Below are positions 5,625-54,547 of a stretch of DNA of 64,000 nt, piece by piece. This DNA is from an uncultured Gammaproteobacteria bacterium. Lineage in GTDB: Bacteria > Patescibacteriota > Microgenomatia > Woykebacterales > RBG-16-39-9b. Position 1 is the stretch's first letter; each line of letters begins with the position of its first letter. Location of the stretch: positions 17,739 to 81,738 of the forward strand of contig OZ246414.1 of the NCBI GenBank assembly GCA_965231125.1, read 5' to 3'. The translations under genes and the position numbers were made by a program. A model generated the notes under the pieces. That model was not told where the DNA came from. It searched no databases and saw nothing but the letters and a program-made list of their open reading frames with translations.

Positions 5625-6281
5625 CTACGCACAAGAGCCTCCAGGACTCTTACCGTAGATGGTGTCTGACTGAATGGTCTTGGCCGAAACTGTGGTCAGA
5701 GCTCGGCCGGCCAGGATCCCACTGAATAAGGCAGGTTGAACCGTCTCCTCGCTGATAGCAGTACCAGCTGCGTCGCCTACCTCACCGCAAGTATTGGCAG
5801 CCTCCCACGTCCAGTTAGCTGTTATCGGTGTGTTTGCCGTGAAACTGGTAACCGGCTCGTTTCGATCTCCGTCGCCGTCCGTATCGTCGAAGTCACGAAC
5901 TTCTATAGTCACTGGAAGCACTGCTTCCAAACCGATTGAGCCCTGGCTGATTTGAAGCCAGTTACTGTCAGAAATGTCTTTCTTGCCTTTAAAACTCCAG
6001 ACCGTCTGACACCCATACTCTTCACAGCGAGTGAGTTTCCCTTCGACACTGGCGATATCTTGGATTTGGGCTCCGGTCGCACTACTCGAGCGGATCAAGC
6101 GTGTAACTTGGACTGATCCCTCAGTCACCAGATTCGTTGTGTGTGTAATTGTGAAAAAGCCAGTCGCTCCCTCAGTTGTGGTACGAGACCATCCGTTGTC
6201 TCCACTCGTTGCAAAGACATTCGCAACAGTGAAGACAAGTAGAGCTAAAACTGTCATCAACGACAATGCTATTTTTTTCAT
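5625..6281 (-). CDS. secreted protein, paralogue family A (CxExxCxTxWxF + DxDGDGD motifs); true start taken as the internal ATG at 6281
   Basis: Signal peptide MKKIALSLMTVLALLVF after an AAAGGAGGAG RBS. Motifs TRCEEYGCQTVWSF and DFDDTDGDGDRNE are shared with the 44016..44729 ORF. Confidence 0.6.
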   Translation of the reverse strand: MKKIALSLMTVLALLVFTVANVFATSGDNGWSRTTTEGATGFFTITHTTNLVTEGSVQVTRLIRSSSATGAQIQDIASVEGKLTRCEEYGCQTVWSFKGKKDISDSNWLQISQGSIGLEAVLPVTIEVRDFDDTDGDGDRNEPVTSFTANTPITANWTWEAANTCGEVGDAAGTAISEETVQPALFSGILAGRALTTVSAKTIQSDTIYGKSPGGSCA

Positions 6282-6348
6282 TTGTCTCCTCCTTTTTTGG
6301 AATATATTGGCGGTTATCTTTCTCCTGAACAGATTTCTTTCGTTTAAA

Positions 6349-6480
6349 GCTTTAGTGTTATACACGCAAGCTTCTTTAGACTTTAGAGCGTAGCTCGCAA
6401 GTCTCGAAGAACTTTAGTGCGTCAGCACGCAAGTCTTGGGGAGCTTTAGCGCGTTAGCGCGCAAATCTCGGAGAGATTTA
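6349..6480. repeat. tandem array of 4-5 degenerate ~31-nt units, each CTTTAG + short hairpin + (GC)AAGTCTYG
   Basis: Unit hairpins are GTGT/ACAC, GAGC/GCTC, GTGC/GCAC and GCGCG/CGCGC. The sequences differ but the pairing is preserved. It lies in the divergent region between the secreted-protein gene and clpB. Confidence 0.6.
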
Positions 6481-6654
6481 TAGCACTTTTTACACCATTT
6501 GTCAAACTTAGAATAAAAAATTATCGGTTTTGTATGAAAAATTAGAAAAAATTTATCCACTCCTATAGTTTCCCCTGGAAATAAATCTATAGGTTGGGGC
6601 ACTTTTACATTTTGCCAACTTGTTCATTCTGTAGGAAATTTTAGCAGAAGGGTA

Positions 6655-6683
6655 TTGCAAGTGCTAATATCCTATGTTATAAG
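6655..6683 (+). promoter_or_regulatory. candidate sigma70-like promoter for clpB
   Basis: TTGCAA-17-TATAAG lies about 60 nt upstream of the clpB ATG. The leader has no clear SD but carries a duplicated TTACTTATTAC motif. Confidence 0.3.
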
Positions 6684-6746
6684 TACCCTGTCGTAGGTAG
6701 TTAAGTTGTTTTCAACTTTTTACTTATTACTTTTTACTTATTACTT

Positions 6747-8897
6747 ATGAGCGAACAACCAGAACAATTTACACCTTTTCAAGTTGCCAAAAATCCTTTG
6801 GAAGCTTACGGAAGAAATCTCACTACACTCGCCAAAGAAGGCAAACTCGATCCGGTCATTGGCCGCGATGAGGAAATCCGCCGGCTTATGCAAGTTCTTT
6901 CCCGCCGCACTAAAAATAATCCAGTCTTAATTGGAGAAGCCGGTGTTGGTAAAACTGCAATTGTTGAGGGCTTGGCGCAAAGAATAATTGCCGGGGATGT
7001 TCCCGACACTTTGAAAGGCCGAGAAATATTTCAACTTGATATATCCTCATTAATTGCCGGTGCCGCCTTTCGCGGCGAATTTGAAGAAAGATTAAAAGCG
7101 GTACTTAAAGCAATCTCCGAGGAAGGTAAATATATTTTATTTATTGACGAGCTCCACCTGGTTGTTGGAGCGGGTCGGGCCGAAGGGGCCGTCGACGCTG
7201 CTAACATTTTAAAACCCGCGCTTGCTCGGGGCGAACTTCACGCTATTGGAGCGACAACTCTGAAAGAATACCGGGAGTACATTGAAAAGGACGCTGCTCT
7301 TGAGAGGCGCTTCCAACCAATTTACGTTGAGCAGCCTTCGATAGAAGATACAATCGCAATTCTTCGGGGCTTAAAAGAAAAATATGAGGTGCATCACGGA
7401 GTAAGAATTACAGATTCGGCTCTGATTGCCGCTGCCACTTTATCCAACCGCTATATTTCCGGAAGATTTTTGCCTGACAAAGCCGTGGACTTGGTTGACG
7501 AAGCAACCAGCGCTCTAAAAATGGAAGTAGAATCTATGCCTGCGCACCTAGACCAGATGAAAAGGAAAATTTTACAACTTGAAATAGAACGGGAGGCTTT
7601 GAAAAAAGAAAAAGATTCCGCCAGTAAAGAGCGGTTAAAGAATGTTGGGACGGAAGTTGATTCCGAGAAAAAGAACTTTGGCAATCTTGAAGGCAAGTGG
7701 AAAAAGGAGAAAGACGTCATTCATGAACTCCGAACCAAAAACCATGAGCTAGAGCGGCTCCGAATGGCTTTGGAAAAAGCAGAACGAGAGGCAGATTTGA
7801 ACACAGCCGCCGAAATTAAATACGGCAAAATCCCCAATTTGGAAAAAGAAGTTGGGGAGATAAATAAAAAATTAAAGACCGTTTCTGGTGAATCCCCCCT
7901 GCTTCGTGAAGAAGTAACCGAAGAAGACATTGCCAAGGTGGTTTCGCGCTGGACTGGGATTCCGGTGGCGCGATTGGTAGAATCCGAAGCCGCTAAATTA
8001 GCTAATATGGAAGTGGAGCTTCACAGGAGGATGGTAGACCAAGAACAGGCAGTAAAAGCGGTTTCTGACGCAATAAGACGCCACAGAGCCGGTATTTCCG
8101 CAGAAACCAAACCAATTGGTAGTTTTATATTCCTGGGACCCACCGGCGTGGGTAAAACAGAACTAGCCCGCGCCCTCGCTGAATTTTTGTTTAATGATGA
8201 AAGAGCAATCGTCAGAGTCGACATGAGTGAGTACATGCAAGAGCATTCTGCCGCCCGGCTCATCGGCGCTCCTCCCGGTTACGTTGGTTACGAAGAAGGC
8301 GGGCAACTAACCGAGGCCGTACGGCGTAAACCGTATTCCGTAGTACTTTTTGATGAGATTGAAAAAGCCCACCCGGACGTTTTCAATATTCTTCTTCAAG
8401 TTTTGGATGACGGTCGGCTTACTGACGGCCGCGGCCGGACTGTAGATTTTAAAAATACCGTAATAATAATGACGAGCAATTTAGGAAGCGAAATAATTCA
8501 AAAATACGCTGGCAAGACGCCAAGCGTTATGAAAGAAGAACTAATGGGGTTAGTGCGTAACACCTTTCGCCCCGAATTTTTAAACAGGGTTGACGAAATC
8601 GTCGTCTTTAACCCACTAACGGAGAAAGAAATCGCCCAGATTACTAAACTTCAACTAGATAAAGTTGTGGAGCAACTTAAAGAAAAAGGAATAAAAATAA
8701 AAATAGATCCAAAAGTCGAGGAACAAATCGCCAAAGAAGGTTTTGACCCGGTTTACGGTGCGAGACCCTTAAAGAGAGTTATCCAGGATAAAATTCTTGA
8801 TGAGCTTGCCCTTCAGATTGTTGAAGGGAAGGTGAAATCCGGAGATACAGTAACTGCACAGTTACAAGACGGAAAAGTTAGTTTAAAAGTTTCGTAA
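6747..8897 (+). CDS. clpB: ClpB-type AAA+ disaggregase lacking the N-terminal domain
   Basis: Two Walker A sites ([16 protein letters not shown]), a middle coiled-coil region and a C-terminal small domain. At 716 aa it starts directly at NBD1. Confidence 0.9.
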
Positions 8898-15739: not shown

Positions 15740-17897
15740 AAGGTTTCATCTCTCCCCAATTTTTACCAAGCTTCATCTCAACAACGAGAGGAACAGAAAG
15801 GGGAAAGGCTGTCTCCATAATGTTTTTTACCACGGCCGCAGCCTCTTTTAACTCACTCTCAGGAACTTCAAAAACTAATTCATCATGAACTTGCAAAATC
15901 ATTTTTGTTTTTAAACTTTTTACTTTTAACTTTTTACTTAATTCGACCATCGCCTTTTTAATAATATCGGCCGCGGTTCCTTGAATTGGAGAGTTGACGG
16001 CAATTCGCTCGCCTCCCTTGCGCACAATTTGATTGTTACTGCGAAGTTCCAAAACGTAGCGCTTGAACCCGCCTAAAGTAGTCACGAAACCGTTTTCGTA
16101 GGCTTCCCTTAGTACCGCACCAATCCAATCTGAAACTTGCGGAAACCGGGCGAAGTAGCGGTCGATTATTTCTTTAGCTTCTGCCGGCGAATTTTTAAGT
16201 TGCTGGGAAAGGCCAAACGGCGAAATGCCGTACATTATGCCAAAGTTAATTATTTTCGCGACTCGTCTGTCTTCCTTTGTAACCTCGCTTGGCTTTTTCC
16301 CAAGGATGGATGCCGCCGCCTCTGTGTGAATATCTTCGCCTTCCTCAAAAATCCTTTTGAGTTCCCTGTCCCCGCTTATATGCGCCATAACGCGCAGTTC
16401 TATTTGGTTGTAATCTCCCGAAAGTAAAACGCTGCCTTTCGGGGCAATAAAGGCGGCGCGGACTTTTTCGCCCCAGCCACCTCGAGCCGGAATATTTTGC
16501 AAATTGGGATCTTTTGAGGAAAGCCGGCCGGTACGAGCAATATCCGTGTGATAATGGGTGTGAACCCGACTGTCGGGCCCAATTTGGGCTGGCAAAGCAT
16601 CTACGTAGGTAGATTTTAGTTTAAAAAGCTCGCGGTATTGCAGAATTAAATCTATCACTGGATGCGCACCAACAAGAGACGATAAAGTCGCCTGATCCGT
16701 AGACTTGTGAGTTTTGATGCGAGTCGACCTTTCCGGAACAAGGTTTAACTCTTCATAAAGAACTTCTGAAAGTTGGCGTGGGGAGTTGAGATTAAATTCG
16801 TGACCAACTTCCTTATAGATTTGCTTTTCTAATTGAGAAAGCTTATTATTAATATCTTCCGATAACTGCGCCAGTTTTTTCTGGTCAAGCAACACGCCGT
16901 AGTTCTCCATTTCCCGAAGAACTTTTTCCAAATCGAAATTAACCCCCGTTTCCTCCTCTTTCTGTTTTTCAAACAAACCGGCCTGATCTTTGTTCTCGAT
17001 AGTTTGATAGCTCGATAGTTTCTCCTTCTCAACACCCGGAAGTTTATTTATCAGTGACTTAAATTCTAGCGCTTGAAAAAGCTTCACTGCTTCGGCTTTA
17101 TCATAATCGTGCAAAACGCACTTATTTAAATCCAGTTTTATTGGCGCATTAACATCTATAGTAGAGAGTCTTTTTGACATAACGGCTGCCTCGGCATCTG
17201 CCTCTAGTAGCTTGCGGGTCCTTTCTGGGATTTTGGCAAGGTTTTTGTAAATTTCTTCGACCGAACCAAACTCTTTCACTAGCTTCACTGCGCCAACGTC
17301 CCCAATTCCCCGAACCCCTGGGATATTATCTGAGGCATCTCCTGCCAAAGCTTTAACATCAATAAGTTTTTGGGGAGCAAGACCGTATTTCTCCTCGACA
17401 ATTTTTGAGTCGTAATAGACTACATCGGCAAAACTTTTCCCCGGAGTGTAAATTTTTACGTTTGGCCTAACAAGTTGAAGTGTATCGCGATCTCCCGTGA
17501 CAATTAGTACCTCCAAATCTTTAACACCATTTTCCGTTGCTTGTTTGACCAAAGTGCCAATAATATCGTCTGCTTCATAACCGGCAAGTTCAAAAACAGG
17601 AATATTCAGTACCGAAAGAACTTCCTTTACTCTGGGCATTTGTTCATGAAGCTCTTCAGGCGCTGCGCCCCTTTGGGCTTTATAGGCTGTATATTCTTGG
17701 TGGCGAAAAGTGGGTTCAGCGGTGTCAAAAGTAACCGCAATGTAGGCTGGTTTAACATCGGCAATTGCTCGCAGTAACATGCTTGTGAAGCCAAAAACCG
17801 CGTTGACCAGCTCGCCCTTGGAAGTTGTCAGTGGAGGCATAGCGTGATAAGCACGATGAAAAACCGCGTGCCCGTCTACCAACATTAATTTTGCCAT
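15708..17897 (-). CDS. polA: DNA polymerase I, with 5'-3' exonuclease and polymerase domains and no recognisable 3'-5' exonuclease domain
   Basis: 729 aa. The N-terminal FEN-like domain and the C-terminal family A polymerase motifs (e.g. YGISPFGLS, QVHDELVFE) are both present. Confidence 0.9.
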   Translation of the reverse strand: MAKLMLVDGHAVFHRAYHAMPPLTTSKGELVNAVFGFTSMLLRAIADVKPAYIAVTFDTAEPTFRHQEYTAYKAQRGAAPEELHEQMPRVKEVLSVLNIPVFELAGYEADDIIGTLVKQATENGVKDLEVLIVTGDRDTLQLVRPNVKIYTPGKSFADVVYYDSKIVEEKYGLAPQKLIDVKALAGDASDNIPGVRGIGDVGAVKLVKEFGSVEEIYKNLAKIPERTRKLLEADAEAAVMSKRLSTIDVNAPIKLDLNKCVLHDYDKAEAVKLFQALEFKSLINKLPGVEKEKLSSYQTIENKDQAGLFEKQKEEETGVNFDLEKVLREMENYGVLLDQKKLAQLSEDINNKLSQLEKQIYKEVGHEFNLNSPRQLSEVLYEELNLVPERSTRIKTHKSTDQATLSSLVGAHPVIDLILQYRELFKLKSTYVDALPAQIGPDSRVHTHYHTDIARTGRLSSKDPNLQNIPARGGWGEKVRAAFIAPKGSVLLSGDYNQIELRVMAHISGDRELKRIFEEGEDIHTEAAASILGKKPSEVTKEDRRVAKIINFGIMYGISPFGLSQQLKNSPAEAKEIIDRYFARFPQVSDWIGAVLREAYENGFVTTLGGFKRYVLELRSNNQIVRKGGERIAVNSPIQGTAADIIKKAMVELSKKLKVKSLKTKMILQVHDELVFEVPESELKEAAAVVKNIMETAFPLSVPLVVEMKLGKNWGEMKPYAGTTRSRNY

Positions 17898-17948: not shown

Positions 17949-19871
17949 CTAACTTTTGACGTCTTTATCGGGAGATGTGGTCTCAACTTTAATTTCTGAC
18001 TCTTCCTTAGGCTCTTCTATTTGCTCTTTTACCTGGTGGAGTTTCTCCCCCCTCGTTACAATTTCTTCAAACTCGGCACCTTCTAAGGTTTCCTTTTTGA
18101 TTAATTCGGCTGCCACAAGATCTAACTTTTCTTTGTTTTCCCGAAGGATTTTTTTGGCTTTATCGAAACATTCATCGATTATTCTTTTAACTTCGTCGTC
18201 TACTTTTGCTGCCAAATGTTCTGAAAGTGGTTTTGGGTCTCCAAGTTCTCGGGCCAACCAAGGGTTCTCTCCTGGAGCGCCCATGGTTAATGGGCCCAAA
18301 GAGCTCATACCGAATTCCGTCACCATTTTTCTGGCAATTTCGGTGGCTCTCGAAATGTCAGAACTTGCCCCAACCGTGAATTCATTAAACTCAATTTCTT
18401 CGGCAGCCCTACCACCAAGAAGCGATGTTATGGTTTCCAAAAGCCTTGTCTTTGTTTCGTTGTAGCGGTCTTGTGAAGGCGGGATAAGGGTATGACCGCC
18501 GGTGCCTCCACGGGCCACAATTGATATCCGGTGAACCGGATCCATGTTAGGAAGCATTTTCGTTACTAAACCGTGCCCGGCTTCATGGTAGGCGGTTATT
18601 TTCTTTTCTTCCTCGGAAGTCATTCTTTTTCTTTCTGGCCCAAGTTGAACTTTGGTAGCAGCTTCTTCCAAATCTTTATTTCCCACCTGTTTTTTACCAT
18701 CTCTTGCGGCTAAAATCGCTGCCTCGTTTAACATGTTCTCCAAGTCGGCTCCAGAAAAACCGACAGTCCGGCGGGCTAGACTTTCAATATCAACACCTGC
18801 CTCCAGTGGTTTATTTTTTGAGTGAATCTTAATAATTGACTTGCGACCTTCAATGTCGGGCAAATCCAATGTAACTCGGCGATCGAAACGCCCTGGGCGC
18901 ACCAGTGCAGGGTCCAACATATCCGGCCGGTTTGTAGCCGCCATAACAATTATATTAATATTCGGCTCAAAGCCATCCATCTCGACTAAAATTTGGTTTA
19001 AAGTCTGTTCCCTCTCGTCGTGACCACCACCAATCCCGAGACCCCGTTGCCGACCTATCGAATCAATTTCATCAATAAATATTATGGCCGGTGAAGATTT
19101 TTTTGCATTATCGAATAAATCTCTTACGCGAGACGCGCCGACTCCCACCAACATTTCCATAAATTCACTGCCGGCAATTGAGAAGAAAGGAACATTGGCT
19201 TCTCCCGCAACTGCCCGAGCTAGAAGTGTCTTACCCACACCAGAAGGCCCAACTAATAAAGCTCCTTTGGGAATCTTTGCTCCAAGCGCGCGATACTTTT
19301 CCGGGCTCTTTAAAAAATCCACCACTTCAGTAAGTTCCCTTTTAGCTTCATCAACACCAGCAACATCAGAAAATGTGGTTTTTGGATTATCGCGGTTGAA
19401 AAGCTTCGCTCGGCTTCTTGAAAAGGAAAGAATGTTATCCCCTGCATTCCTTGCTTGACGAAGAAAAAAGAAGAAAAATCCAGCTAGAAGAAGTATTGGC
19501 AAGAATATATTCAAAAGACCAAATACCGTATCTCTGGTAGAGGTATCTTTGTTGTTGATAGCTACCTTTGCTGGATCTATACCGGAGGCTTTAAGGGTCT
19601 GGGTAAAAACTTCGTTTTGCTGAAGCCGAGATTTTATAGTGCTTCCATCTTTCAATTTTGCCTCAACGTTCACACCATCAATGGCGACAGAATCTACATT
19701 ACCATCTTTTATCTGCGTGAGAATATCGCTTTCTGGCTTTTGTACAGATTGTCCCCGTGGAGAAAGAAAACTAAAGATAAGAAAAGAGGCGACTATGATT
19801 AGAAGAACATAGAAAGGTATGCTTCCAAAAAACCCTTTTTTTGATTTTTGTAATTTTGGTGCTTCAGGCAT
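17949..19871 (-). CDS. ftsH: ATP-dependent zinc metalloprotease FtsH
   Basis: N-terminal TM segments, the AAA Walker A GPSGVGKT, and the zinc motif HEAGHGLV. Confidence 0.95.
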
Positions 19872-19883
19872 AAGTTAGTAATA

Positions 19884-19947
19884 GGATCCTCCGTAACCAA
19901 ATCCAAGTGATTTGGGTACTCTCGGATCCTGCGTCTTTCAGACTAAA
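19884..19947. repeat. dispersed intergenic element R1, copy 1 (modules A TCCGTAACCAAATCCAAGTGATT, B GGGTACTCTCG, C CTGCGTCTTTCAGACTA)
   Basis: Module A is identical over 23 nt to 52926..52948. The module C hairpin GTCT/AGAC is replaced by GTCC/GGAC in copy 2. Confidence 0.5.
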
Positions 19948-19962
19948 GTAAAACGGCCGACT

Positions 19963-20044
19963 GATTTAGTCCCAAGACACAAGATGGCGCGTACGCGCCA
20001 GATTTAGTCCTATGGACGTAATATGGCGCTTCCGCGCCAGATTA
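19963..20044. repeat. two tandem ~41-nt units each ending in a GC-rich hairpin (TGGCGCG-TA-CGCGCCA; TGGCGC-TTCC-GCGCCA) followed by AGATT
   Basis: Direct repeat GATTTAGTCC...ATGGCGC..CGCGCCAGATT occurs twice, between the trpS stop and the ftsH start. Confidence 0.5.
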
Positions 20045-20090
20045 TACCAGATCCATATTTATCGTTCAATGGTATTTATACGAAGGGCAC

Positions 20091-21077
20091 TTAAACTAAC
20101 CGCATTGCTTTTTTGACCATTTCGAGAGTTTCCGCAGCCTCGGCTCGTGCTTTTTCCGTACCCTCTTGCAGAATTTTTCCAACTAACTCACCTTCATTCT
20201 CGAACTTTACTCTTCTTTGTCGGATTGGGTCTAAAAAGTTATTCAGAGCGGCCGTCAATTTTTCTTTCACCTCAACATCCCCAACCGCGCCTTTCTGATA
20301 ACGCTTCTTTAGATCTTCAACTTCATCTTTATTGGGATTGAAAGCGTCGTGATAAATAAAAACCGGGTTTCCTTCAACTTTTCCTGGATCGCTTGGGTGA
20401 ATTCGGGCTGGATCCGTATACATACTCCTCACCTTTTTTTCGACTTCGTCGCTACTATCTGAAAGATAAATCGCGTTGTTAAGTGATTTACTCATTTTCG
20501 CCTTGCCATCGATCCCAGGCAAAACTCCAATTTCTTTTGGAATCAAAGCTTCGGGGATTGGGAAAACTTCACTGTAGGTAGAGTTGAACTTTTCAGCAAG
20601 TTCCCGAGTCAACTCAATGTGACTCGCTTGATCTTTTCCTACTGGAACAAGATTCGCTCTAACCATCAAGATATCAGCTGCTTGCATAACTGGATAAGAA
20701 AGTAGTCCGAGGGACGGGTTTTCAATTTTTAAATCACGCAACATATCTTTGAGAGTTGGAATTCTCTCAAGTCTACTTTTAGAAACCAACATTGATAAGA
20801 TTACGGCGAGTTCTTGATCTTCCGAAATTTCACTTTGCACACAAAAGGTTACTTTTTTAGGGTCGATACCCACCGAAAGTTGATCCAAAACTAAATCTTT
20901 TATATTTTGCTTAATTTGAGAGGTATCGTCACTAGTAGTAAGAGCGTGTAAATCGGCCACCAAAAGAAACACTTCGTATTCGTCTTGAAGTGCTAGTCGA
21001 TTTTTTAGCGAGCCAACAAAGTGGCCTAAATGTAGTTTTCCTGTTGGCCTATCCCCAGTTAAAATTCTTTTTTTCAT
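20091..21077 (-). CDS. trpS: tryptophan--tRNA ligase
   Basis: HIGH-type motif TGDRPTGKLHLGHFVG and the KMSKS motif. Confidence 0.9.
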   Translation of the reverse strand: MKKRILTGDRPTGKLHLGHFVGSLKNRLALQDEYEVFLLVADLHALTTSDDTSQIKQNIKDLVLDQLSVGIDPKKVTFCVQSEISEDQELAVILSMLVSKSRLERIPTLKDMLRDLKIENPSLGLLSYPVMQAADILMVRANLVPVGKDQASHIELTRELAEKFNSTYSEVFPIPEALIPKEIGVLPGIDGKAKMSKSLNNAIYLSDSSDEVEKKVRSMYTDPARIHPSDPGKVEGNPVFIYHDAFNPNKDEVEDLKKRYQKGAVGDVEVKEKLTAALNNFLDPIRQRRVKFENEGELVGKILQEGTEKARAEAAETLEMVKKAMRLV

Positions 21078-26452: not shown

Positions 26453-26460
26453 ACCTTAAT

Positions 26461-26524
26461 TATATCGCTTTTGCGATACAAAAGCAGATGCAATCTGCGA
26501 TTTAATCGCTTTTGCGATACAATC
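26461..26524. promoter_or_regulatory. two copies of the palindromic motif TATATCGCTTTTGCGATACAA overlapping a -10-like TATAAT, upstream of the ftsB-like gene
   Basis: The inverted repeat ATCGC-TTTT-GCGAT occurs twice, at 26464..26477 and 26505..26518. The same motif is found upstream of sufD at 39913..39960. Confidence 0.4.
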
Positions 26525-26814: not shown

Positions 26815-27687
26815 ATGATTAAGGTTTCTGACGCGCATAAAAAGTTTATAGAACATCTAAAAAGTCAAGGTCGCTCTTCGGCGACTGTTTTGGCTTATGG
26901 GAAAGATATCGAACAGCTTAAAGATTTTCTCGCTGATCTTAAAAAGGCTCAGGTCCAAGAGATAACCACTAAGGATCTCCAAGCTTTCATGGCAAAACTC
27001 AACAAGGAAGGCTACACACCAAAAAGTATTTCCCGAAAAACAAACTCAACAAAAACCTTTTTTAGATTCTTAAAAGTCAACGAATTTGTAACTGATGACC
27101 CAGCCATTTTACTTGAACACCCACGATTCGAAATGAAACCGCCGAGAATCCTGACTAAGATGGAATATCGCGCCTTAAGAGATTCAGCTAGAGACGACAC
27201 TAGGATTTCGGCAATAATCGAGCTTTTGCTCCAAACCGGAATTAGAATTGGAGAACTGGCCAAATTAAAACTTTCTGACGCGAAATTTTCTAATAACAGT
27301 AAGGCTGGGGAACTTCACGTACCGGCTGGGGAATCTTACCCAGAAAGAACTGTTCCTGTAAATAAAGCCGCTGAGGGGGCTTTGAAGAAATACATAGAGA
27401 TCCGACCGCAAACAAAGGACGAAACCATGTTCGTGACTAAAACTGGTCGACCCCTACTTGTAAGAAACATTAGAACCGCTATCGACCGCTACTTTAAACT
27501 CGCCAGCATTAAAAACGCCAAGGTAAACGATCTTCGCCACACCTTTGTGGCCCATCACTTAATGAGCGGTACTTCTCTTGTTCTAGTTTCCAAACTTGCC
27601 GGCCACAAGAGACTAGCTACTACAGAAAAATACCTCAATCTGATTCAAGGACGCGTCGAAGAACCAATTAAACTCAACGAGCTCTAA
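26815..27687 (+). CDS. tyrosine site-specific recombinase/integrase (XerC/D-like)
   Basis: Has an N-terminal SAM-like domain. The catalytic residues LRHTF and HKRLATTEKY (R...H..R...Y) are present. Confidence 0.85.
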   Translation: MIKVSDAHKKFIEHLKSQGRSSATVLAYGKDIEQLKDFLADLKKAQVQEITTKDLQAFMAKLNKEGYTPKSISRKTNSTKTFFRFLKVNEFVTDDPAILLEHPRFEMKPPRILTKMEYRALRDSARDDTRISAIIELLLQTGIRIGELAKLKLSDAKFSNNSKAGELHVPAGESYPERTVPVNKAAEGALKKYIEIRPQTKDETMFVTKTGRPLLVRNIRTAIDRYFKLASIKNAKVNDLRHTFVAHHLMSGTSLVLVSKLAGHKRLATTEKYLNLIQGRVEEPIKLNEL

Positions 27688-28230: not shown

Positions 28231-28306
28231 GGGCCAGTAGCTCAGCGGTTAGAGCACCACTCTTATAAAGTGGGGGTCCTTGGTTCGAATCCAAGCTGGC
28301 CCACCA
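28231..28306 (+). tRNA. tRNA-Ile with UAU anticodon, CCA encoded
   Basis: GGGCCAG-TA-GCTC-AGCGGTTA-GAGC-A-CCACT-CTTATAA-AGTGG-GGGTC-CTTGG-TTCGAAT-CCAAG-CTGGCCC-A-CCA. Fully canonical cloverleaf. Confidence 0.85.
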
Positions 28307-28371
28307 TTAGGTCTTAATTGACTTGATTACTGTGGCGTTTCTCGGCTTGCGTCCCCTAAAAGCGAGGTTAA

Positions 28372-28398
28372 AAGTGGGGGTCCTTGGTTCGAATCCAT
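28372..28398 (+). repeat. exact 27-nt duplicate of the tRNA-Ile 3' portion (anticodon-stem 3' strand through T-loop), 65 nt downstream of the gene
   Basis: AAAGTGGGGGTCCTTGGTTCGAATCCA is identical to 28268..28294. After CCA it diverges (TCCGAGCTCG). Confidence 0.6.
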
Positions 28399-33157: not shown

Positions 33158-33267
33158 ATCAAAAAAATACTGCGACCACTTCGTGGTCTAAGTCAACTTT
33201 TCTCATATAACTGTTCTTACACCACTTAATTGTAGCAGAAATGTTGTTCTAGCTGGCGGAGGATTGA

Positions 33268-34282: not shown

Positions 34283-34714
34283 TTATCTTTCAACTTTTAC
34301 TTCCGCTTTAATTAGAGCGTCCTTTAAAACATTTAAACTTAAGAGTGTACAACCGAGTCTGGCTGGTGATGGGTTAATTCCCAACAACCTAAGTATATCA
34401 CCCGTCTCTACCTTCCGGGCTTCTGCTAGAGATTTCCCTTCGATATAACTTGCTAATAGAGAGGCTGATGCTTGGGAAATCGCGCACCCTGTCCCGGAAA
34501 AAACCGCCTTTTTAATTATGTTCTCTGAATTCTTTAGCCCACGAAGTGGTCGCAAAGCGCGAAGCGATTTTATTCTTAATTGCAATTTAATTTCGTCTCC
34601 ACAAAGCTGATTTACTAGCCTAGCCTCTAAATCTGGGTTGGAAATTTCACCCCGGTTTTTGGGGTTTCGCGCTACTTCTAGAATTGTTTGTCGGTAGAGT
34701 TGATCTTCGATCAT
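34283..34714 (-). CDS. sufU: SufU/IscU-like Fe-S scaffold/sulfur-transfer protein
   Basis: The conserved Cys-containing motifs LCGD and GCAIS. Confidence 0.8.
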   Translation of the reverse strand: MIEDQLYRQTILEVARNPKNRGEISNPDLEARLVNQLCGDEIKLQLRIKSLRALRPLRGLKNSENIIKKAVFSGTGCAISQASASLLASYIEGKSLAEARKVETGDILRLLGINPSPARLGCTLLSLNVLKDALIKAEVKVER

Positions 34715-39324: not shown

Positions 39325-39912
39325 TTAATTAAGTGTAAAACTAGCTACTTCTTTTTTGAGGGCAGTTTCTAAACGCTGCTTTTCTTTCGCTGGAAGTTTT
39401 TCCAAAATCCCAGAGAAATATCCTTGAACAATCAGCCTTGTTGCCTCTCTTTGAGTAACTCCCCGACTCGTTAAATAAAAGAGCGCTTCTTCGTCCACTG
39501 GGCCCACTGTAGAGGCATGACCAGCCTTCACTTCGTTTTCATCAATTTCAAGGGATGGAATCGCTTCGGCTTTCGCTGTGTCAGAAAGTAAAAGAGCGTC
39601 TTCGCGAAAAAAAGTATTGGTATTTTTGGCGCCTTTTTTTATGGAGACCAAACCGTAAAACTGGCCGACGGCTGTATCTTTAAGGACCGATTTAATCACT
39701 GTGTCGCTGGTCGTATCGGCAGCAACGTGACGGATATTCACGTTAACCTTTACCTCGTCTTTATTCCCTAAAAGGAAGGCCCCGACAACTGAAAGCTTCG
39801 CTCCTCTGCCAATAAGTTTTGCATTAACACTAATTTCTTCTGAACCGGAAGTCCACACAATCGGCAAAACTTTTTCTTGGTTTTCGGTTAGAGTTAACGA
39901 AATATTTTTCAT
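39325..39912 (-). CDS. sufD: SufD-like Fe-S assembly protein (short form)
   Basis: C-terminal SufBD-family beta-helix signature (ASTVGPVDEEALFYLTSRG). It lies in the suf cluster. Confidence 0.6.
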   Translation of the reverse strand: MKNISLTLTENQEKVLPIVWTSGSEEISVNAKLIGRGAKLSVVGAFLLGNKDEVKVNVNIRHVAADTTSDTVIKSVLKDTAVGQFYGLVSIKKGAKNTNTFFREDALLLSDTAKAEAIPSLEIDENEVKAGHASTVGPVDEEALFYLTSRGVTQREATRLIVQGYFSGILEKLPAKEKQRLETALKKEVASFTLN

Positions 39913-39960
39913 GAGGAAAGATTATATCGCTTTAGCGATACAGAATAAAGCGATGTAATC
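39913..39960. promoter_or_regulatory. palindromic motif ATTATATCGCTTTAGCGATACA + AAAGCGATGTAATCGC immediately upstream of sufD
   Basis: It shares ATTATATCGCTTTnGCGATACA...AAAGC.ATGyAATC with 26458..26500. Confidence 0.4.
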
Positions 39961-40198
39961 GCTGACGCTTATAACAAAAAGGAAAGCCGCTGGTAAATCT
40001 TTACCAACGGCTCATGTTACGCGCCAAGTTCCAACCTGGTCCTCAAGAAACCGGCTGCCCAAGAGGTAAACCCCACTAGCACTCCGACTATAAGGGCCAG
40101 TTGTATTGGAGCAAACTGACGCGCGAAGATTGTGGCGGGAATTGTGCAAAGCGAAGCAGTGTGCCAAACAACTTCCGCCAATCCTAATACTAGCTCTC

Positions 40199-40390
40199 TC
40201 ACCGCCGACTTCCCAAAACCCTGAAAACGAGCCAGACTACAGCCCCTGCAACTATGACGATTACGGCCCATTTGATGATCCAAATGACCACGTGTGCAAG
40301 AGCGAGGATCAGAACTACTGCAAAAACCCCAGCTACAGCGAGGCCAAGCAGAGCCAGCAAAGATCCTCCGGAATCACTCTCCCTGTTCAT
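40199..40390 (-). CDS. small two-TM membrane protein (63 aa) embedded in the suf operon
   Basis: Strong RBS AAAGGAGGAAG and a hydrophobic sequence. The region is GC-rich with overlapping ORFs in other frames. Confidence 0.45.
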   Translation of the reverse strand: MNRESDSGGSLLALLGLAVAGVFAVVLILALAHVVIWIIKWAVIVIVAGAVVWLVFRVLGSRR

Positions 40391-40624
40391 CTACTTCCTC
40401 CTTTTTAGTCTTGATTGTTGCTTAGTACCGTCGACTGGGTTTTCCCTTGCTCATCAACCGTCGCCGCTTGTTACCCACACAATCCCTGCTAAGGTCAGCC
40501 CTACAACCACGGACGTTTTGACGTCCCTTATTTTACCATAGAGCACAAGAAATTTGACTAAATTGAAAAATTGGTGAAAAAAAGGGCTTCTGTACTTTCA
40601 TTTCCAGAAGCCTTATTGCTAAAT

Positions 40625-40798
40625 TCAGTCTCTCAGCTCTCTCGGCCGGATTAGGTACGGAGACATCAAAGCCAGAGTATAAACACCAGCGAATATCAGT
40701 GTCGGAAGGTCCCCTAACCAATAATGCACAGCGAGTAACCCGTACAGACCAACTGCGAAAATGGACATGAGAAAAAGATACCCTCTCCAAAACCCCAT
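40625..40798 (-). CDS. small two-TM membrane protein (58 aa; internal ATG start with AAAGGAG RBS)
   Basis: MGFWRGYLFLMSIFAVGLYGLLAVHYW... Confidence 0.45.
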   Translation of the reverse strand: MGFWRGYLFLMSIFAVGLYGLLAVHYWLGDLPTLIFAGVYTLALMSPYLIRPRELRD

Positions 40799-40838
40799 CG
40801 AAATTTCTCCTTTCACGGTATCTCCCACATTATTATAC

Positions 40839-42248
40839 TTAGCCGACTGAACCGATCATCTCCAATTGTATCAGACGATTCAACTCCAGAGCGTACTCCA
40901 GGGGAAGTTCTTTGACAATTGGCTCGATAAAGCCGTTGACGATCATGCTGGTTGCATCATTTTCGGAAAGCCCGCGAGACATGAGATAAAAAAGTTGGTC
41001 TTCGCCAATTTTGGAAACAGAAGCCTCGTGGCCCACTTGTACATTTTCTTCATCAATCTGCATGGTCGGGTAAGTATCAGATCGACTTTTTTCGTCGAGA
41101 ATCAAGGCATCGCAGCGGACATTACTTTTTGCTCCTTTGGCTCCTTTAATAACTTTTAAGAGGCCTCGGTAGGAAGACCGCCCCCCATCTTTGGAAATAG
41201 ACTTAGAAATTATTTGCGAACTTGTGTTGGGGGCCAAGTGATAGGCTTTTCCACCAACGTCTTGGTGCTGTCCGGCCCCAGCAAAGGCAACCGAAAGTAT
41301 TTCTCCTCTAGCCCCTTTGCCTTTTAAATAGACAGATGGGTATTTCATCGAAATTTGGGATCCAAGATTGCCATCTATCCATTCCATGAAACCTTCTTCT
41401 TCAACAAAAGCTCTCTTTGTCACCAAGTTGTAAACATTTTTTGACCAGTTTTGAATAGTGGTGTAGCGGCAGCGGGCGCCTTTCTTAACAAAGATTTCGA
41501 CAACCGCAGCGTGCAAAGAATCCTTCGTGTAGACAGGTGCAGTGCAACCTTCGACATAGTGCACTTGGGCTCCTTCATCAACGATAATTAATGTGCGTTC
41601 GAATTGCCCCATTTGGGCGGCGTTAATACGGAAATAGGCTTGAAGTGGGACTTCAACTTTAACACCGGGCGGAACGTAGATGAAGGATCCACCAGACCAA
41701 ACCGCACTATTGAGCGCGGCGAGTTTGTTGTCGGCTGGGGGGATGGCCCGACTAAAGTACTCTTTAAAGATTTCCGGGTGTTTTTTCAGAGCAGAATCAG
41801 TATCTAAAAAAATTACTCCTTTTTTGGCAAGTTCCTCTCGCAGTGAATGATAAATCACTTCGCTGTCGTACTGCGCACCAACCCCACCCAGATATTTTTT
41901 TTCTGCTTCGGGGATGCCGATCGCGTCGTAAGTCTCTCGGATTTCGGCCGGTAAATCCTCCCAAGTGTCAGATTTACCCGCCGTCGGCTTTAGATAGTAA
42001 TAAATTTCATCGTAATTGATTCGGGAAAGATCGGCTCCCCACGTCGGTTGCTTTTTGGCTTTAAAGATTTCGTAGGCCCGCAGTCGAAAAGCTCTCATCC
42101 ATTCCGGTTCCTCTTTTTGAAAAGAAATCTCTTTGACAATTTCTTCGTCTAAGCCTTTGCGAGTTTTGAAAACGTAATGCTCCGGCTTTGAAAAACCATA
42201 TTTTTCTCTATAACCGATATTGACTTCCAGTGTTTCTACCTTAGACAT
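40839..42248 (-). CDS. sufB: Fe-S cluster assembly protein SufB
   Basis: 469 aa with SufB-family conservation throughout. Confidence 0.9.
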
Positions 42249-44729: not shown

Positions 44730-44872
44730 GTTGCACCTCCTATGCGCTAGCTGTTATCGGATTTTCCGATAAACTAGCTCTATATAATAGCAGATTTGTG
44801 GGAAAAAGTCAAACTATAGGGCTTTCTTTACCAAGAAAGCCCTGCGAACTTCGTTCTAAAGACGCTCTTAGA

Positions 44873-48727: not shown

Positions 48728-48791
48728 GACATCCCTCCTTCTGCAGATTTTTAAGGGACTATATCAAAAATAAACCTAAATGTCAAACTAT

Positions 48792-48884
48792 AGGGCGCTC
48801 GTAGCTTATGCCTTTTCGCGCTACTCAAAGCCAGCTACTGCGCGTCCTGCGCTAGGCGTCTTAACGCCTAGCTAAGTGTACATG
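48792..48884. repeat. dispersed ~93-nt structured element R2, copy 1
   Basis: About 88% identical to 60978..61071. It has an outer helix GTAGCT/AGCTAC and a terminal 8-bp hairpin GCTAGGCG-TCTTAA-CGCCTAGC. Confidence 0.6.
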
Positions 48885-49067
48885 TTAAGTATTAGACAAT
48901 CAGGCGCACTTGACTAGTTAAGCTTTTAACCGCCTTACGAGATGCCACCACTATCTAATTGAAGGTGGGATTAAGCTAGTGACCTTGTTGTCATCCTGAA
49001 CTTGATTCAGGATCTAGATGCTGAAATAAATTCAGCATGGCATCGGGCAATCGATACTTCGAATATT

Positions 49068-52916: not shown

Positions 52917-53016
52917 ATAGATCGCTCCGTAACCAAATCCAAGTGATTAAGATCGCTAAAGCGTTCTGCGTCCTTCGGACTAGGGTACTCTCGCGCTCTG
53001 CGACCGCTCTGCGGTC
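52917..53016. repeat. dispersed intergenic element R1, copy 2 (modules A, C, B rearranged relative to copy 1)
   Basis: TCCGTAACCAAATCCAAGTGATT is identical. Hairpin GTCC-ttcg-GGAC replaces GTCT-ttca-AGAC. The 7-nt direct repeat AGATCGC flanks module A. Confidence 0.5.
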
Positions 53017-53529
53017 TATTGTAGCCTAAATTACAATTCGCAAGTAATTTTCCTCACCAACCAAAAGTAATTTCTCTCACTGATATTTGGTCGGAGTTCC
53101 TTTAAATTAAGGATGAAAGGTACTCCGGTCCCTTAGGGGGCTGGAGAAGGAGAAGAGGGTTAGTGAGTTTGCCGATAGGGGGTAGGGACCGGGAGCTGCC
53201 GAGCCCAAAGAGGCAGCACACACAAATCTAAGGGCGGAGGGTAAGTCACCGGGAAAGTACAATGTACCAACTACTCCGTTGTAAACCCGCTAACACCTCT
53301 TCACCAGAGAGACGCCGTCCAACAGGACAGAAAGGAAGACGAAAATTCCATGCTGTCGACTAACAATCGACACAAAGACGAGCCGGCGTATAACAAGACG
53401 CACTCGTCGTAGAGCGGCTGAACTGTTTGTTCCTAGGCAAAGGAACAAATAGTGAAGCCGCTCTCTGTCGTTTTAAGCGAGCCCTCGGAGATTTACTTTA
53501 ACTTGGCTACCAGTTAAAATAATTCCCAA
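53017..53529. ncRNA. GC-rich ORF-free region with dense nested hairpins: candidate structured non-coding RNA, family and strand unresolved
   Basis: No ORF of 60 aa or more in any frame. Helices include GAGCGGCT..TTTGTTCC-N8-GGAACAAA..AGCCGCTC, GACGAG-N20-CTCGTC, GTCGA-N7-TCGAC, GGTCCCT-N57-AGGGACC and GCTGCC-N12-GGCAGC. Confidence 0.3.
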
Positions 53530-54059: not shown

Positions 54060-54241
54060 AAGAAAAACGATCCTGAGCATAGTCGAATGGATCGTTTCTC
54101 CTCCTAAGAAAACTACTAAGCTTGTCGAAGTAATTTGCTTAGGGTTTCCAGGTGCAGTGTTTTCCGTTCAGCATTTAGCTTACTTGTACTCTCCGCACCT
54201 GGTTTCACCCGGGCTGTTAGGCCTGGTTGTTGAGTCGAAGT

Positions 54242-54520: not shown

Positions 54521-54547
54521 GGTAACTCCTCTCCTCCTTACGTTGTC

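What the first reader, a model, noticed from the sequence alone, without database searches (positions are those of the whole stretch)
6349..6480. Array of four to five ~31-nt units, each a CTTTAG-hairpin-AAGTCTYG module with covarying stems, upstream of clpB
The unit stems are GTGT/ACAC, GAGC/GCTC, GTGC/GCAC and GCGCG/CGCGC. The primary sequences differ but the pairing is maintained, which is covariation across tandem paralogous units. The period is constant at ~31-32 nt and the flanks (CTTTAG, AAGTCTYG) are conserved. It is not CIRCE, CtsR or HAIR by sequence. It is not CRISPR-like either, because there are no unique spacers and the repeats are degenerate. It lies in the 465-nt divergent region between a secreted-protein gene and clpB, whose leader lacks an SD and instead carries duplicated TTACTTATTAC. 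It could be a repeated protein-binding operator, a transcribed tandem-hairpin RNA, or a decayed repeat array.
Basis: seen in the sequence. Interest (0 to 1): 0.55.

Follow-up and report, generated by a model that had tools for sequence, protein, structure and literature searches.

The report
Tandem cluster of tiny palindromic repeats
The four hairpin units are real, but they are not a clpB control site: they are a tandem cluster of a roughly 33-base palindromic repeat family that is scattered through this candidate-phylum (Woykebacteria) genome, has even landed in-frame inside a gene, and here sits in the predicted leader of the neighbouring secreted-protein gene.

Summary
Observation confirmed. 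There are four units with a 31-32 nt period at 6347-6476. Each folds as outer stem, conserved 2x2 mismatch and variable 4-bp inner stem, and the inner stem shows compensatory changes.

Interpretation not supported. clpB has its own conserved CIRCE operator at 6641-6667, overlapping its promoter, in all four Woykebacteria genomes aligned. Six relatives with the same synteny lack the array.

The array starts right after the -10 box of a conserved promoter on the minus strand. It therefore probably forms the 5' leader of the divergent 218-aa secreted-protein gene.

The unit belongs to a dispersed family:
- intergenic solo copies at about 19931, 33172, 44844, 52968 and (weaker) 53000;
- a 36-nt in-frame insertion in sufU/iscU;
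- one copy in a relative's clpB leader;
- a six-unit, 33-nt spacer-less array upstream of serS on an unrelated metagenomic contig, with near-identical unit sequences.

The background rate of the motif is about 1 per Mb.

Best reading: a small non-autonomous palindromic repeat, similar in kind to REP and RPE elements and not described before, amplified in tandem. Its mobilising enzyme and its effect on expression are unknown. Interest is moderate.

The parts
6441..6476 (-). Array unit m1, first in the sense of the minus-strand transcript. Sequence: TCTCTCCGAGATTTGCG-CGC-TAAC-GCG-CTAAAG. It starts directly after the -10 box.
   Evidence: Unit model R1 scores 40.0 bits. Predicted RNA fold -11.6 kcal/mol. 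The 11-mer CGAGATTTGCG is identical to that of L090 units 5-6.
6409..6440 (-). Array unit m2. Sequence: AGACTTGCG-TGC-TGAC-GCA-CTAAAG.
   Evidence: 28.0 bits. Predicted fold -8.6 kcal/mol.
6378..6408 (-). Array unit m3. Sequence: GAGACTTGCG-AGC-TAC-GCT-CTAAAGTCT. It is followed by a 7-nt partial duplicate, TCTAAAG, at 6374-6380.
   Evidence: 41.9 bits. Predicted fold -11.2 kcal/mol, with 86% of the ensemble in that structure.
6347..6373 (-). Array unit m4, shortened at its 5' end. Sequence: AAGCTTGCG-TGT-ATA-ACA-CTAAAGCTT.
   Evidence: 27.2 bits. Predicted fold -9.9 kcal/mol.
6477..6505 (-). Predicted sigma-70 promoter that reads leftward through the array: -35 TTGACA (6505 to 6500), a 17-nt spacer carrying an extended TGn, and -10 TATAAA (6482 to 6477).
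   Evidence: Read from the sequence. The -35 box and the TGnTAT -10 are conserved in L082 and L086 (alignment). The simple scan missed it because it requires T at position 6 of the -10 hexamer. The transcription start is inferred, not mapped.
5625..6281 (-). Gene for a 218-aa secreted protein, with a signal peptide, the Shine-Dalgarno sequence GGAGGAG, and no Pfam match. Its predicted 5' leader of about 190 nt holds the array.
   Evidence: Only two homologues were found (51-52% identical), and neither has the array upstream in the 98-223 nt available.
6641..6683 (+). The element that is conserved upstream of clpB: CIRCE-like TTAGCAGAA-N9-AAGTGCTAA (6641-6667) overlapping the promoter -35 TTGCAA (6655-6660) and -10 TATAAG (6678-6683). 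It is not part of the array.
   Evidence: unique in the window, 0.03 expected; the block is conserved in four genomes, with a both-sided change (TTGGCA...TGCCAA) in L084.
6747..8897 (+). clpB: 716 aa, two AAA+ modules and no N-terminal domain.
   Evidence: (AAA_2 2.6e-72, ClpB_D2-small 9.8e-27).
19921..19954 (+). Solo family copy: CCTGCG-TCT-TTC-AGA-CTAAAG. It lies in the intergenic region upstream of ftsH.
   Evidence: (25.8 bits, E 4.6e-4).
33171..33192 (+). Solo family copy: TGCG-ACCAC-TTC-GTGGT-CTAAG. It lies in a divergent intergenic region.
   Evidence: pair I13: 95% complementary over 21 nt to the sufU insert.
34526..34563 (-). Family copy inserted in-frame in sufU/iscU. The 36 nt TCGCTTCGCGCTTTGCGACCACTTCGTGGGCTAAAG encode SLRALRPLRGLK.
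   Evidence: 19.8 bits. (NifU_N 1.2e-21); a 14-residue gap at this point in B. subtilis SufU and T. thermophilus IscU; absent from the closest homologue, which is 64-67% identical.
44834..44867 (+). Solo family copy: CCTGCG-AAC-TTC-GTT-CTAAAG. It lies between two minus-strand genes.
   Evidence: (21.5 bits).
52945..53021 (+). Two adjacent family copies. The first, AAGATCGCTAAAGCGTTCTGCG-TCC-TTC-GGA-CTAGGG, is nearly identical to the L090 type-b unit. The second, TCTGCG-ACCGC-TCT-GCGGT-CTATTG, is weaker.
   Evidence: (22.6 bits), and comparison.

Best explanation
The array is a head-to-tail amplification of four copies of a very small (about 31-36 nt) palindromic repeat. The repeat belongs to a dispersed, lineage-specific family and is probably non-autonomous and mobile.

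The unit, read on the strand that carries TTGCG...CTAAAG, has four parts:
- a 5' arm of about 14-17 nt (for example TCTCCGAGAYTTGCG or ATCGCTTnGCnCTYTGCG);
- a short stem-loop of variable sequence;
- an invariant GC/TA mismatch at the foot of that stem;
- the 3' end CTAAAG.

What is shown:
- The family exists and is strongly enriched in this genome.
- The hairpin is maintained by compensatory changes, and the mismatch is invariant.
- Copies occur as singlets in intergenic DNA, as one in-frame insertion in sufU, and as spacer-less tandem arrays in two unrelated genomes and gene contexts.
- Relatives lack the array at this site.
- clpB has its own CIRCE operator.

What is inferred:
- The array was inserted, or expanded by slippage, directly 3' of the TATAAA -10 box of the promoter of the divergent 218-aa gene. 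It would then be transcribed as four independent 5'-proximal hairpins in that gene's leader.
- There it most plausibly acts as a passive or mildly modulatory 5' structure, for example by protecting the mRNA 5' end. It is unlikely to be a dedicated regulator, and it has no role at clpB.
- The distance between the conserved flanks varies from 9 to 14 nt while the stem foot is constant. This points to recognition of a folded single strand (DNA or RNA) rather than of duplex half-sites.
- Copies tend to follow TAAA(A/G)-like sequences, including the element's own 3' end. That would explain arrays without spacers.
For: 1. Family and enrichment.
- A covariance model built from the units finds three further intergenic copies in the window with E 4.6e-4 to 5.7e-3, plus one coding copy with E 0.016.
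- A complementarity-aware pattern search finds 15 matches against 2.7 in shuffles.
- The stricter form of that pattern finds only about 3 stray hits in 2.95 Mb of unrelated loci.
- About 129 kb from six related Woykebacteria yields one clear copy and one doubtful one.

2. Homology across genomes.
- L090 (SDBT01097785.1) carries six 33-nt units, 95% alike, that fill the gap between an 82-aa ORF and serS.
- Its type-a unit shares CGAGATTTGCG...CTAAAG with window unit m1.
- Its type-b unit (AAGATCGCT..TCTGCGTCCTACGGACTAAAG) matches the window solo copy at 52945-52985.

3. Selection on structure.
- The inner stem is 100% paired, with three pairs changed on both sides.
- The GC/TA mismatch is invariant in all units.

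4. Coding insertion.
- 36 nt (12 codons) sit in a loop of SufU and are absent from solved homologues and from the nearest relative.

5. Not a clpB element.

6. Position.
- The array starts directly after the conserved minus-strand -10 box.
- The copy in L086 likewise follows the TATAAA of the clpB promoter.
- The leader is predicted to fold as four separate hairpins that leave the Shine-Dalgarno sequence free.

7. Precedent.
- REP sequences form ordered tandem arrays (PMC3116915).
- Rickettsia palindromic elements invade ORFs (PMC1166351).
Against: - Only 64 kb of this genome was available, so the genome-wide copy number is an extrapolation.
- Only two arrays are known, and only two genomes clearly carry the family.
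- No transposase of any kind that could move the element was found. None of the 47 window ORFs scanned against Pfam is a Y1/RAYT-type enzyme.
- The solo copies are weaker hairpins (-2 to -9.5 kcal/mol, several no better than shuffles). They have a TTC loop and a CCTGCG flank that differ from the array units, so part of the 'family' could be convergent.
- No empty-site/filled-site pair at near-identical sequence was available, so a target-site duplication, and hence mobility itself, is not proven.
- The transcription start is predicted, not mapped.
- Solo copies are mostly antisense to their neighbouring genes while the array is sense. This gives no consistent RNA-level reading.
Confidence: 0.68

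Rival explanations
1. The array is a repeated operator for a stress regulator of clpB. For example, it could be an HspR/HAIR-like site, with four palindromes spaced about three helical turns apart.
For: - It lies in the clpB divergent region.
- The best unit reads CTTTAGT-N8-ACGCAAG. By my own comparison with the consensus from memory (HAIR, CTTGAGT-N7-ACTCAAG), that is 12 of 14 positions.
- The period of 31-32 bp is close to three turns of DNA.
Against: - clpB already has a conserved CIRCE over its -35 box.
- The array is absent from six syntenic relatives.
- It lies upstream of, and faces away from, the clpB promoter, and downstream of the other gene's promoter.
- The same unit occurs upstream of serS, inside sufU and at other unrelated loci.
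- The distance between the conserved flanks varies from 9 to 14 nt, and the two 'half-sites' are always unequal (TA against GC). This does not fit a symmetric dimer on duplex DNA.
Confidence: 0.04
2. The unit is a functional RNA (or single-stranded DNA) module recognised by a dedicated protein through the conserved stem foot (UUGCG...CUAAAG with a G-A/C-U internal loop). The array would be a multivalent binding platform in the leader of the secreted-protein mRNA, for stability, localisation or translational control. The dispersed copies would form a regulon.
For: - The mismatch is invariant and the stems change in a compensatory way across two genomes.
- U-G pairs in the outer stem (column pair 9-30, 5 of 8 units) are allowed only on the TTGCG...CTAAAG strand. 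That is the mRNA-sense strand for both arrays and for the L086 clpB-leader copy.
- The four hairpins are predicted to fold independently.
Against: - Solo copies at 19931 and 44844 lie between minus-strand genes and are antisense to them. The copy at 52968 follows a gene rather than preceding one.
- One copy is translated as part of SufU.
- No gene for a candidate binding protein is shared between the loci.
- Rfam has no such family.
- The L090 units are 95% identical, which looks like recent amplification rather than long-maintained function.
Confidence: 0.14
3. The array is a purely local minisatellite. A single hairpin in this spacer was duplicated by replication slippage, and the resemblance to other sites is coincidental.
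For: - Head-to-tail units without spacers, a partial 7-nt duplicate, and a 12-nt duplicate next to the L086 copy are typical slippage products.
- The L090 units are nearly identical to each other.
Against: - Flanks of 11-18 nt are shared with an array in a different genome and gene context.
- The motif is enriched at least 50-fold over background in the window.
- All model hits with E below 0.01 are intergenic.
- Slippage explains the amplification but not the dispersal. The two processes are compatible, and slippage is part of the best explanation.
Confidence: 0.08
4. The hairpins are transcription terminators or insulators between the two divergent transcription units, or a remnant CRISPR-like array.
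For: - The hairpins are G+C-rich and lie in intergenic DNA.
- Some solo copies lie just after stop codons.
Against: - No U-tract follows the hairpins, and the scan found no terminator-like site in 6150-6850.
- There is no gene to terminate on either side of a divergent spacer.
- There are no spacers and no cas genes, and the repeats are degenerate.
Confidence: 0.03

Closest known systems
REP / BIME / REPIN elements of proteobacteria (repetitive extragenic palindromes mobilised by RAYT tyrosine transposases)
   Same: - Short imperfect palindromes of a few tens of nucleotides.
- Mostly extragenic, occurring as singlets and as ordered tandem clusters (PMC3116915).
- The stem is maintained while its sequence drifts.
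- Often transcribed as part of mRNAs.
   Different: - There is no GTAG motif; the conserved flanks are TTGCG and CTAAAG.
- Copies are direct repeats or singlets, not inverted doublets (REPINs).
- Array units abut one another without spacers.
- No RAYT gene was seen in the 64 kb.
- The host is a Patescibacteria (CPR) lineage. A full-text search for REP together with 'Candidate Phyla Radiation' returned only one incidental paper.
Rickettsia palindromic elements (RPE)
   Same: - Small palindromic repeats in a reduced genome that invade both non-coding DNA and protein-coding genes in frame (PMC1166351).
- The sufU copy here adds 12 residues in a surface loop.
   Different: - From general knowledge, RPEs are about 100-150 bp; these units are 31-36 nt.
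- There is no sequence similarity.
- Spacer-less tandem arrays are not a known RPE feature.
MIRU-type minisatellites (mycobacterial interspersed repetitive units) and other intergenic VNTRs
   Same: - Tandem head-to-tail units in short spacers between genes.
- The period in L090 is a multiple of three and keeps a reading frame open.
- Units are nearly identical, which suggests slippage.
   Different: - From general knowledge, MIRU units are 40-100 bp and are not defined by a hairpin with covarying stems.
- The window array has a 31-32 nt period and diverged units.
CIRCE / HrcA operator
   Same: An inverted repeat upstream of a chaperone gene. It applies to 6641-6667, which matches TTAGCACTC-N9-GAGTGCTAA at 14 of 18 positions with the correct 9-nt spacer.
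   Different: The array units themselves do not match CIRCE.

Membership tests
REP/REPIN-RAYT | Short (about 20-40 nt) imperfect palindrome able to form a hairpin | tested here: met
   The units are 27-33 nt and fold at -8.6 to -11.6 kcal/mol. The stems covary.
REP/REPIN-RAYT | Many dispersed, mainly extragenic copies per genome | tested here: inconclusive
   The 64 kb holds 4 array units, about 5 solo copies and 1 coding copy, against a background of about 1 per Mb. The rest of the genome could not be examined.
REP/REPIN-RAYT | Conserved GTAG tetranucleotide at the 5' foot of the hairpin | tested here: not met
   The conserved flanks are (Y)TTGCG and CTAAAG. GTAG is not conserved at any position.
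REP/REPIN-RAYT | Replicative unit is an inverted doublet (REPIN) | tested here: not met
   All array units are direct repeats. The solo copies are singlets or, at 52945-53021, a direct pair.
REP/REPIN-RAYT | A cognate RAYT (Y1 transposase, PF01797) gene flanked by the repeats | tested here: inconclusive
   None of the 47 window ORFs scanned against Pfam is one. Only about 64 kb of the genome was visible.
Rickettsia palindromic elements | In-frame insertion into protein-coding genes that leaves the protein intact | tested here: met
   A 36-nt insert in sufU. The NifU_N domain remains intact around it.
Rickettsia palindromic elements | Element length of about 100-150 bp and membership of the RPE sequence families | tested here: not met
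   The units are 31-36 nt. Rfam and sequence searches give no match.
CIRCE (HrcA operator) | TTAGCACTC-N9-GAGTGCTAA inverted repeat at a chaperone promoter | tested here: not met
   This is not met by the array units. It is met by a separate site at 6641-6667, which is conserved in four genomes.
HAIR (HspR operator) | CTTGAGT-N7-ACTCAAG with fixed spacing at heat-shock promoters | tested here: not met
   The best unit matches 12 of 14 positions but with N8 spacing (my own comparison with the consensus from memory). Spacing across the family varies from 9 to 14 nt between the conserved flanks. Copies occur at loci unrelated to heat shock.
CRISPR array | Near-identical repeats separated by unique spacers, usually with cas genes | tested here: not met
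   The units abut without spacers and are 60-78% alike. There are no cas genes nearby.
Intrinsic terminator | G+C-rich hairpin followed by a U-tract at a gene's 3' end | tested here: not met
   The scan found no terminator-like site in 6150-6850. The spacer lies between two gene starts.

The most novel reading that the evidence does not exclude
The family could be a new kind of ultra-small mobile element in Patescibacteria. A roughly 33-nt unit would be recognised as a folded single strand through its invariant stem foot (TTGCG / CTAAAG with a GC-TA mismatch).

It would insert 3' of TAAA(A/G)-like sequences. Its own 3' end carries that target, so it would build spacer-less tandem arrays. It would also land directly after TATAAA -10 boxes (seen here and in the L086 clpB promoter), which would rewrite the 5' ends of transcripts. 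Finally, it can insert in frame into genes.

The enzyme could be a Y1 transposase of the IS200/IS605 or RAYT type encoded elsewhere, or something unknown.
Probability: 0.15. Interest if true: 0.65.

Novelty: new member of a known kind. Interest (0 to 1): 0.38.

Why it matters
Genomes of the Candidate Phyla Radiation are small and streamlined, and I am not aware of small palindromic repeat families described in them.

This family spreads between intergenic sites, inserts in frame into an essential Fe-S assembly gene (sufU), and amplifies into arrays inside promoter-proximal leaders. That makes it a small-scale source of structural and regulatory variation in these organisms.

It is also a practical warning for annotation. 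Such arrays can be mistaken for operators, structured RNAs or degenerate CRISPRs.

For clpB, the useful result is the opposite of the original suggestion. Its control element in this lineage appears to be a conventional CIRCE site over the -35 box.

Tried and rejected
- **HAIR/HspR idea.** I noticed that the units resemble CTTGAGT-N7-ACTCAAG. I rejected the idea because of variable spacing, constant asymmetry, dispersal to unrelated loci, and the presence of a genuine CIRCE.
- **Rfam.** The search at gathering thresholds over the whole window, and at permissive E-values over 6250-6760, 19850-20110 and 52850-55200, found nothing relevant.
- **ClpB scan of genome contigs.** It returned only ClpB relatives of 63% identity or less, which was useless for synteny. 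Closer relatives came from the protein database and contig look-ups.
- **Homologues of the 218-aa protein.** Only two exist, at 51-52% identity, on short contigs without the array.
- **Viral-contig pattern scans.** The single unit, three CTTTAG motifs at the array period, and the type-b core all gave only chance matches without the hairpin.
- **Searching the protein database with the ORF that the L090 array happens to encode.** No hits.
- **Other readings.** RNA thermometer or Shine-Dalgarno sequestration: the predicted leader leaves the Shine-Dalgarno sequence free and 68 nt from the last unit. Terminator: no U-tracts. Replication origin: no change in the trend of cumulative GC skew at the site in 2-kb windows.

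Full report
**1. The observation**

The sequence at 6347-6476 holds four head-to-tail units with a 31-32 nt period.
- Tandem Repeats Finder reports 6380-6474, period 32, 78% matches.
- The repeat finder reports four copies spaced 31, 32 and 32 nt apart.

Read closely, each unit is more than a 4-bp hairpin. It has an outer stem (AAGCTT/AAGCTT, AGACTT/AAGTCT, ACTT/AAGT, GAG.TTT/AAA.CTC). Next comes an invariant asymmetric internal loop, TA opposite GC. Then a variable 4-bp inner stem (GTGT, GAGC, GTGC, GCGC) closes a 3-4 nt loop.

The units fold this way on their own: -8.6 to -11.6 kcal/mol as RNA and -5.0 to -10.3 as DNA. A 7-nt partial duplicate at 6374-6380 explains 'four to five'. An independently assembled Logan contig carries the identical sequence.

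**2. Whose upstream region is it?**

The flanking genes are:
- a 218-aa secreted protein on the minus strand (ATG at 6281, Shine-Dalgarno GGAGGAG, no Pfam match);
- clpB on the plus strand (6747-8897, 716 aa, no N-domain).

ClpB homologues identify the organism as a Candidatus Woykebacteria (Patescibacteria). The nearest relatives are 81-84% identical in ClpB. I fetched six related contigs with conserved synteny: Fic ... clpB ... SDR/FolD/glycosyltransferases/Fpg/PolA.

None of them has the array. I read the upstream regions of L082, L084 and L086 directly, and the motif search and unit model found nothing in them. For L334, L335 and L336 the absence rests on the unit model.

What is conserved upstream of clpB, in the four genomes aligned, is a block reading TT(A/G)GCAG-N-AGGTATTGCAAGTGC(T/C)AA-N9-TGTTA. 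In the window this block contains two things:
- a CIRCE-like inverted repeat, TTAGCAGAA-N9-AAGTGCTAA, at 6641-6667;
- the promoter it overlaps, -35 TTGCAA at 6655-6660 and -10 TATAAG at 6678-6683.

The pattern TTRGCA-N15-TGCYAA is unique in the window, with 0.03 expected. L084 shows a both-sided change (TTGGCA...TGCCAA). clpB is therefore very probably controlled by HrcA through CIRCE, and the array is not needed to explain its regulation. hrcA itself is not in the window.

On the minus strand, TTGACA (6505 to 6500), 17 nt with an extended TGn, then TATAAA (6482 to 6477) forms a near-consensus promoter. Its -35 box and TGnTAT -10 are conserved in L082 and L086. The first array unit starts immediately after that -10 box.

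The predicted transcript of the 218-aa gene would therefore begin inside unit 1 and carry all four hairpins in a leader of about 190 nt. That leader is predicted to fold as four independent hairpins, with the Shine-Dalgarno sequence left free. In the alignment with L082 and L086, the array is extra sequence specific to the window, lying between the conserved promoter and the gene. The transcription start is inferred, not measured.

**3. The unit is a member of a dispersed family**

My one metagenome scan, for two adjacent units, returned four contigs. Three were chance matches. The fourth, L090 (SDBT01097785.1, 4.2 kb), has six 33-nt units, 95% alike. They fill the spacer between an 82-aa ORF and serS.

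L090 has two unit types within one array:
- Type a is ATCACCTCGAGATTTGCG-TCC-TGC-GGA-CTAAAG. It shares the 11-mer CGAGATTTGCG and the CTAAAG end with window unit m1.
- Type b is ATCGCTTTGCTCTCTGCG-TCC-TAC-GGA-CTAAAG.

I aligned the four window units with four distinct L090 units. TGCG and CTAAAG are invariant. The inner stem is paired in every sequence, and three of its four pairs change on both sides. The covariation score is 0.406 against 0.170 in shuffles (0 of 500), and it disappears when partners are slid by one or more columns.

A covariance model of this alignment, run over the window without filters, recovers the four units. It also finds new copies at:
- 19921-19954 (E 4.6e-4);
- 52958-52991 (E 2.9e-3);
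- 44834-44867 (E 5.7e-3);
- 34563-34526 on the minus strand (E 0.016).

A pattern search that checks complementarity adds 33172 and 53000, and longer-stem versions inside a 102-nt repeat at 48788 and 60985.

The solo copy at 52945-52985 (AAGATCGCTAAAGCGTTCTGCGTCCTTCGGACTAGGG) is almost the L090 type-b unit. This ties the solo copies and the array units together as one family.

The background is low. The strict pattern occurs about three times in 2.95 Mb of unrelated loci. It occurs once clearly, and once doubtfully, in about 129 kb from six related Woykebacteria. The clear one is instructive. In L086 a copy (ACCTTCGGTTCTTGCG-ATAAC-TTT-GTTAT-CTAAAG) sits directly after the TATAAA -10 box of the clpB promoter, the same position relative to a -10 box as the window array.

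**4. A copy inside a gene**

The hit at 34526-34563 lies inside sufU/iscU (34283-34714, NifU_N 1.2e-21). The 36 nt TCGCTTCGCGCTTTGCGACCACTTCGTGGGCTAAAG encode SLRALRPLRGLK.

Alignments with B. subtilis SufU and T. thermophilus IscU show a 14-residue gap at exactly this point. Of the two closest homologues among 1.84 billion representatives (64-67% identical), P0124 has a shorter, unrelated loop there, and its DNA (L333) lacks the element. P0125 has a different, longer insertion. More distant homologues have no loop at all.

The coding copy is 95% complementary over 21 nt to the intergenic copy 1.3 kb away at 33171-33191. This is the behaviour described for Rickettsia palindromic elements (PMC1166351).

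**5. How it most likely works**

Shown:
- a lineage-specific family of about 31-36 nt palindromic units;
- selection, or a templated repair process, that keeps the stem paired while keeping a GC/TA mismatch at its foot;
- dispersal to intergenic and coding sites;
- spacer-less tandem amplification in two genomes.

Inferred:
- The distance between the conserved flanks varies (9-14 nt) while the stem foot is constant, and the two flanks are never symmetric. The recognised object is therefore more likely a folded single strand than duplex half-sites.
- U-G pairs in the outer stem are tolerated only on the TTGCG...CTAAAG strand (column pair 9-30). This hints that that strand is the active one.
- The sequences just 5' of well-delimited copies are ATAAA, TTAAG, AATAG, TATAAA and TATAAA, or the preceding unit's CTAAAG. 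A preference for TAAA(A/G)-like targets would explain both the arrays and the two cases directly after a -10 box. This is a hypothesis built on six sites.
- Slippage probably contributes as well, given the 7-nt and 12-nt partial duplicates and the near-identical L090 units.
- For the host gene, the most likely consequence is a structured 5' end of the mRNA. A regulatory role is neither needed nor indicated.

**6. Comparison with known systems**

The element works like REP/BIME and RPE-type small palindromic repeats. REP tandem arrays are documented (PMC3116915).

It fails defining REP/REPIN features: there is no GTAG, no inverted doublets, and no RAYT gene among the 47 window ORFs scanned. It is also far shorter than RPEs. 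It is not CIRCE, HAIR, CRISPR or a terminator.

Rfam has nothing like it. Full-text searches found no description of such repeats in CPR bacteria. I therefore file it as a new member of the general class of small non-autonomous palindromic repeats, not as a member of any named family.

**7. Verdict**

- The array is a tandem cluster of a newly noticed small palindromic repeat family.
- Interest is moderate (0.38): ordinary in kind, but undescribed in this phylum and with some unusual habits.
- Main limits: only 64 kb of the genome was visible, only two arrays are known, there is no mobilising enzyme, and there are no transcript data.

Noticed in passing
window 6641-6683: CIRCE-like inverted repeat TTAGCAGAA-N9-AAGTGCTAA overlapping the clpB promoter (-35 TTGCAA, -10 TATAAG). 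It is conserved in four Woykebacteria genomes, with a compensatory change in one of them. clpB looks nearly leaderless in L082 and L084, but has a leader of about 60 nt here and about 110 nt in L086.
   Followed up: yes
window 34526-34563 (minus strand), inside sufU/iscU (34283-34714): A 36-nt palindromic element inserted in frame. It adds SLRALRPLRGLK in a loop that is absent from solved SufU/IscU structures. The close homologue P0125 has a different insertion (LPTEASAQAG...) at the same loop, so this loop may be a hotspot.
   Followed up: yes
window 19872-20095: The spacer upstream of ftsH is strongly structured on the minus strand (-78 kcal/mol, z = -5.45). It holds two 39-nt tandem units (19963-20043), each with a G+C-rich hairpin (TGGCGCGtaCGCGCCA), plus a solo copy of the family. 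There is no Rfam match.
   Followed up: partly
window 19890-19925 and 52929-52995: The two sites share the 22-mer CCGTAACCAAATCCAAGTGATT followed by GGGTACTCTCG. At the second site a family hairpin lies between the two halves, as if inserted into a second repeated element.
   Followed up: partly
window 48788-48889 and 60985-61086: A 102-nt dispersed repeat, 88% identical between the two copies. It contains a long-stem version of the same motif (CCTGC-GCTAGGCG-TCTTAA-CGCCTAGC-TAAG) and, at the first site, ends next to a CCTATAGTTTGACA promoter-like sequence.
   Followed up: partly
window 6562-6593; also 44808-44822 and about 48790-48803: Palindrome CCTATAGTTT-N12-CTATAGG between the two divergent promoters, conserved in L082 and L086. 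Elsewhere the motif CCTATAGTTTGAC(A/T) recurs with its TTGAC(A/T) acting as a -35 box. It may be a binding site for a transcription factor or an UP-like element.
   Followed up: partly
window 26459-26483, 26500-26524, 39921-39945: A second small hairpin family, ATTATATCGCTTT(T/A)GCGATACA, present in three copies.
   Followed up: no
window 6715-6748: The clpB leader has no Shine-Dalgarno sequence and carries tandem ACTTTTTACTTATT / ACTTATT repeats up to the ATG. Similar T-rich repeats at 949-980 and 15909-15940 lie inside minus-strand genes and so are not specific to leaders.
   Followed up: partly
window 28267-28293 and 28371-28397; integrase at 26815-27687: The 3' 27 nt of a tRNA gene (28231-28303) are repeated exactly 104 nt downstream, near a tyrosine integrase gene. 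This looks like an att-site duplication left by an integrated element.
   Followed up: no
window 52917-55138: A 2.2-kb stretch without long ORFs. It contains small genes that look like a toxin-antitoxin pair (DUF4258 at 53530-53826 and a zinc-ribbon-like ORF at 53823-54059) and G+C-rich non-coding sequence at 53100-53500. It may be an island.
   Followed up: partly
window 39325-40839: The SufBD-family ORF at 39325-39912 covers only the C-terminal part of the core domain. About 900 nt without a long ORF separate it from sufB (40839-42248). The sufD gene may be disrupted or mis-called.
   Followed up: no
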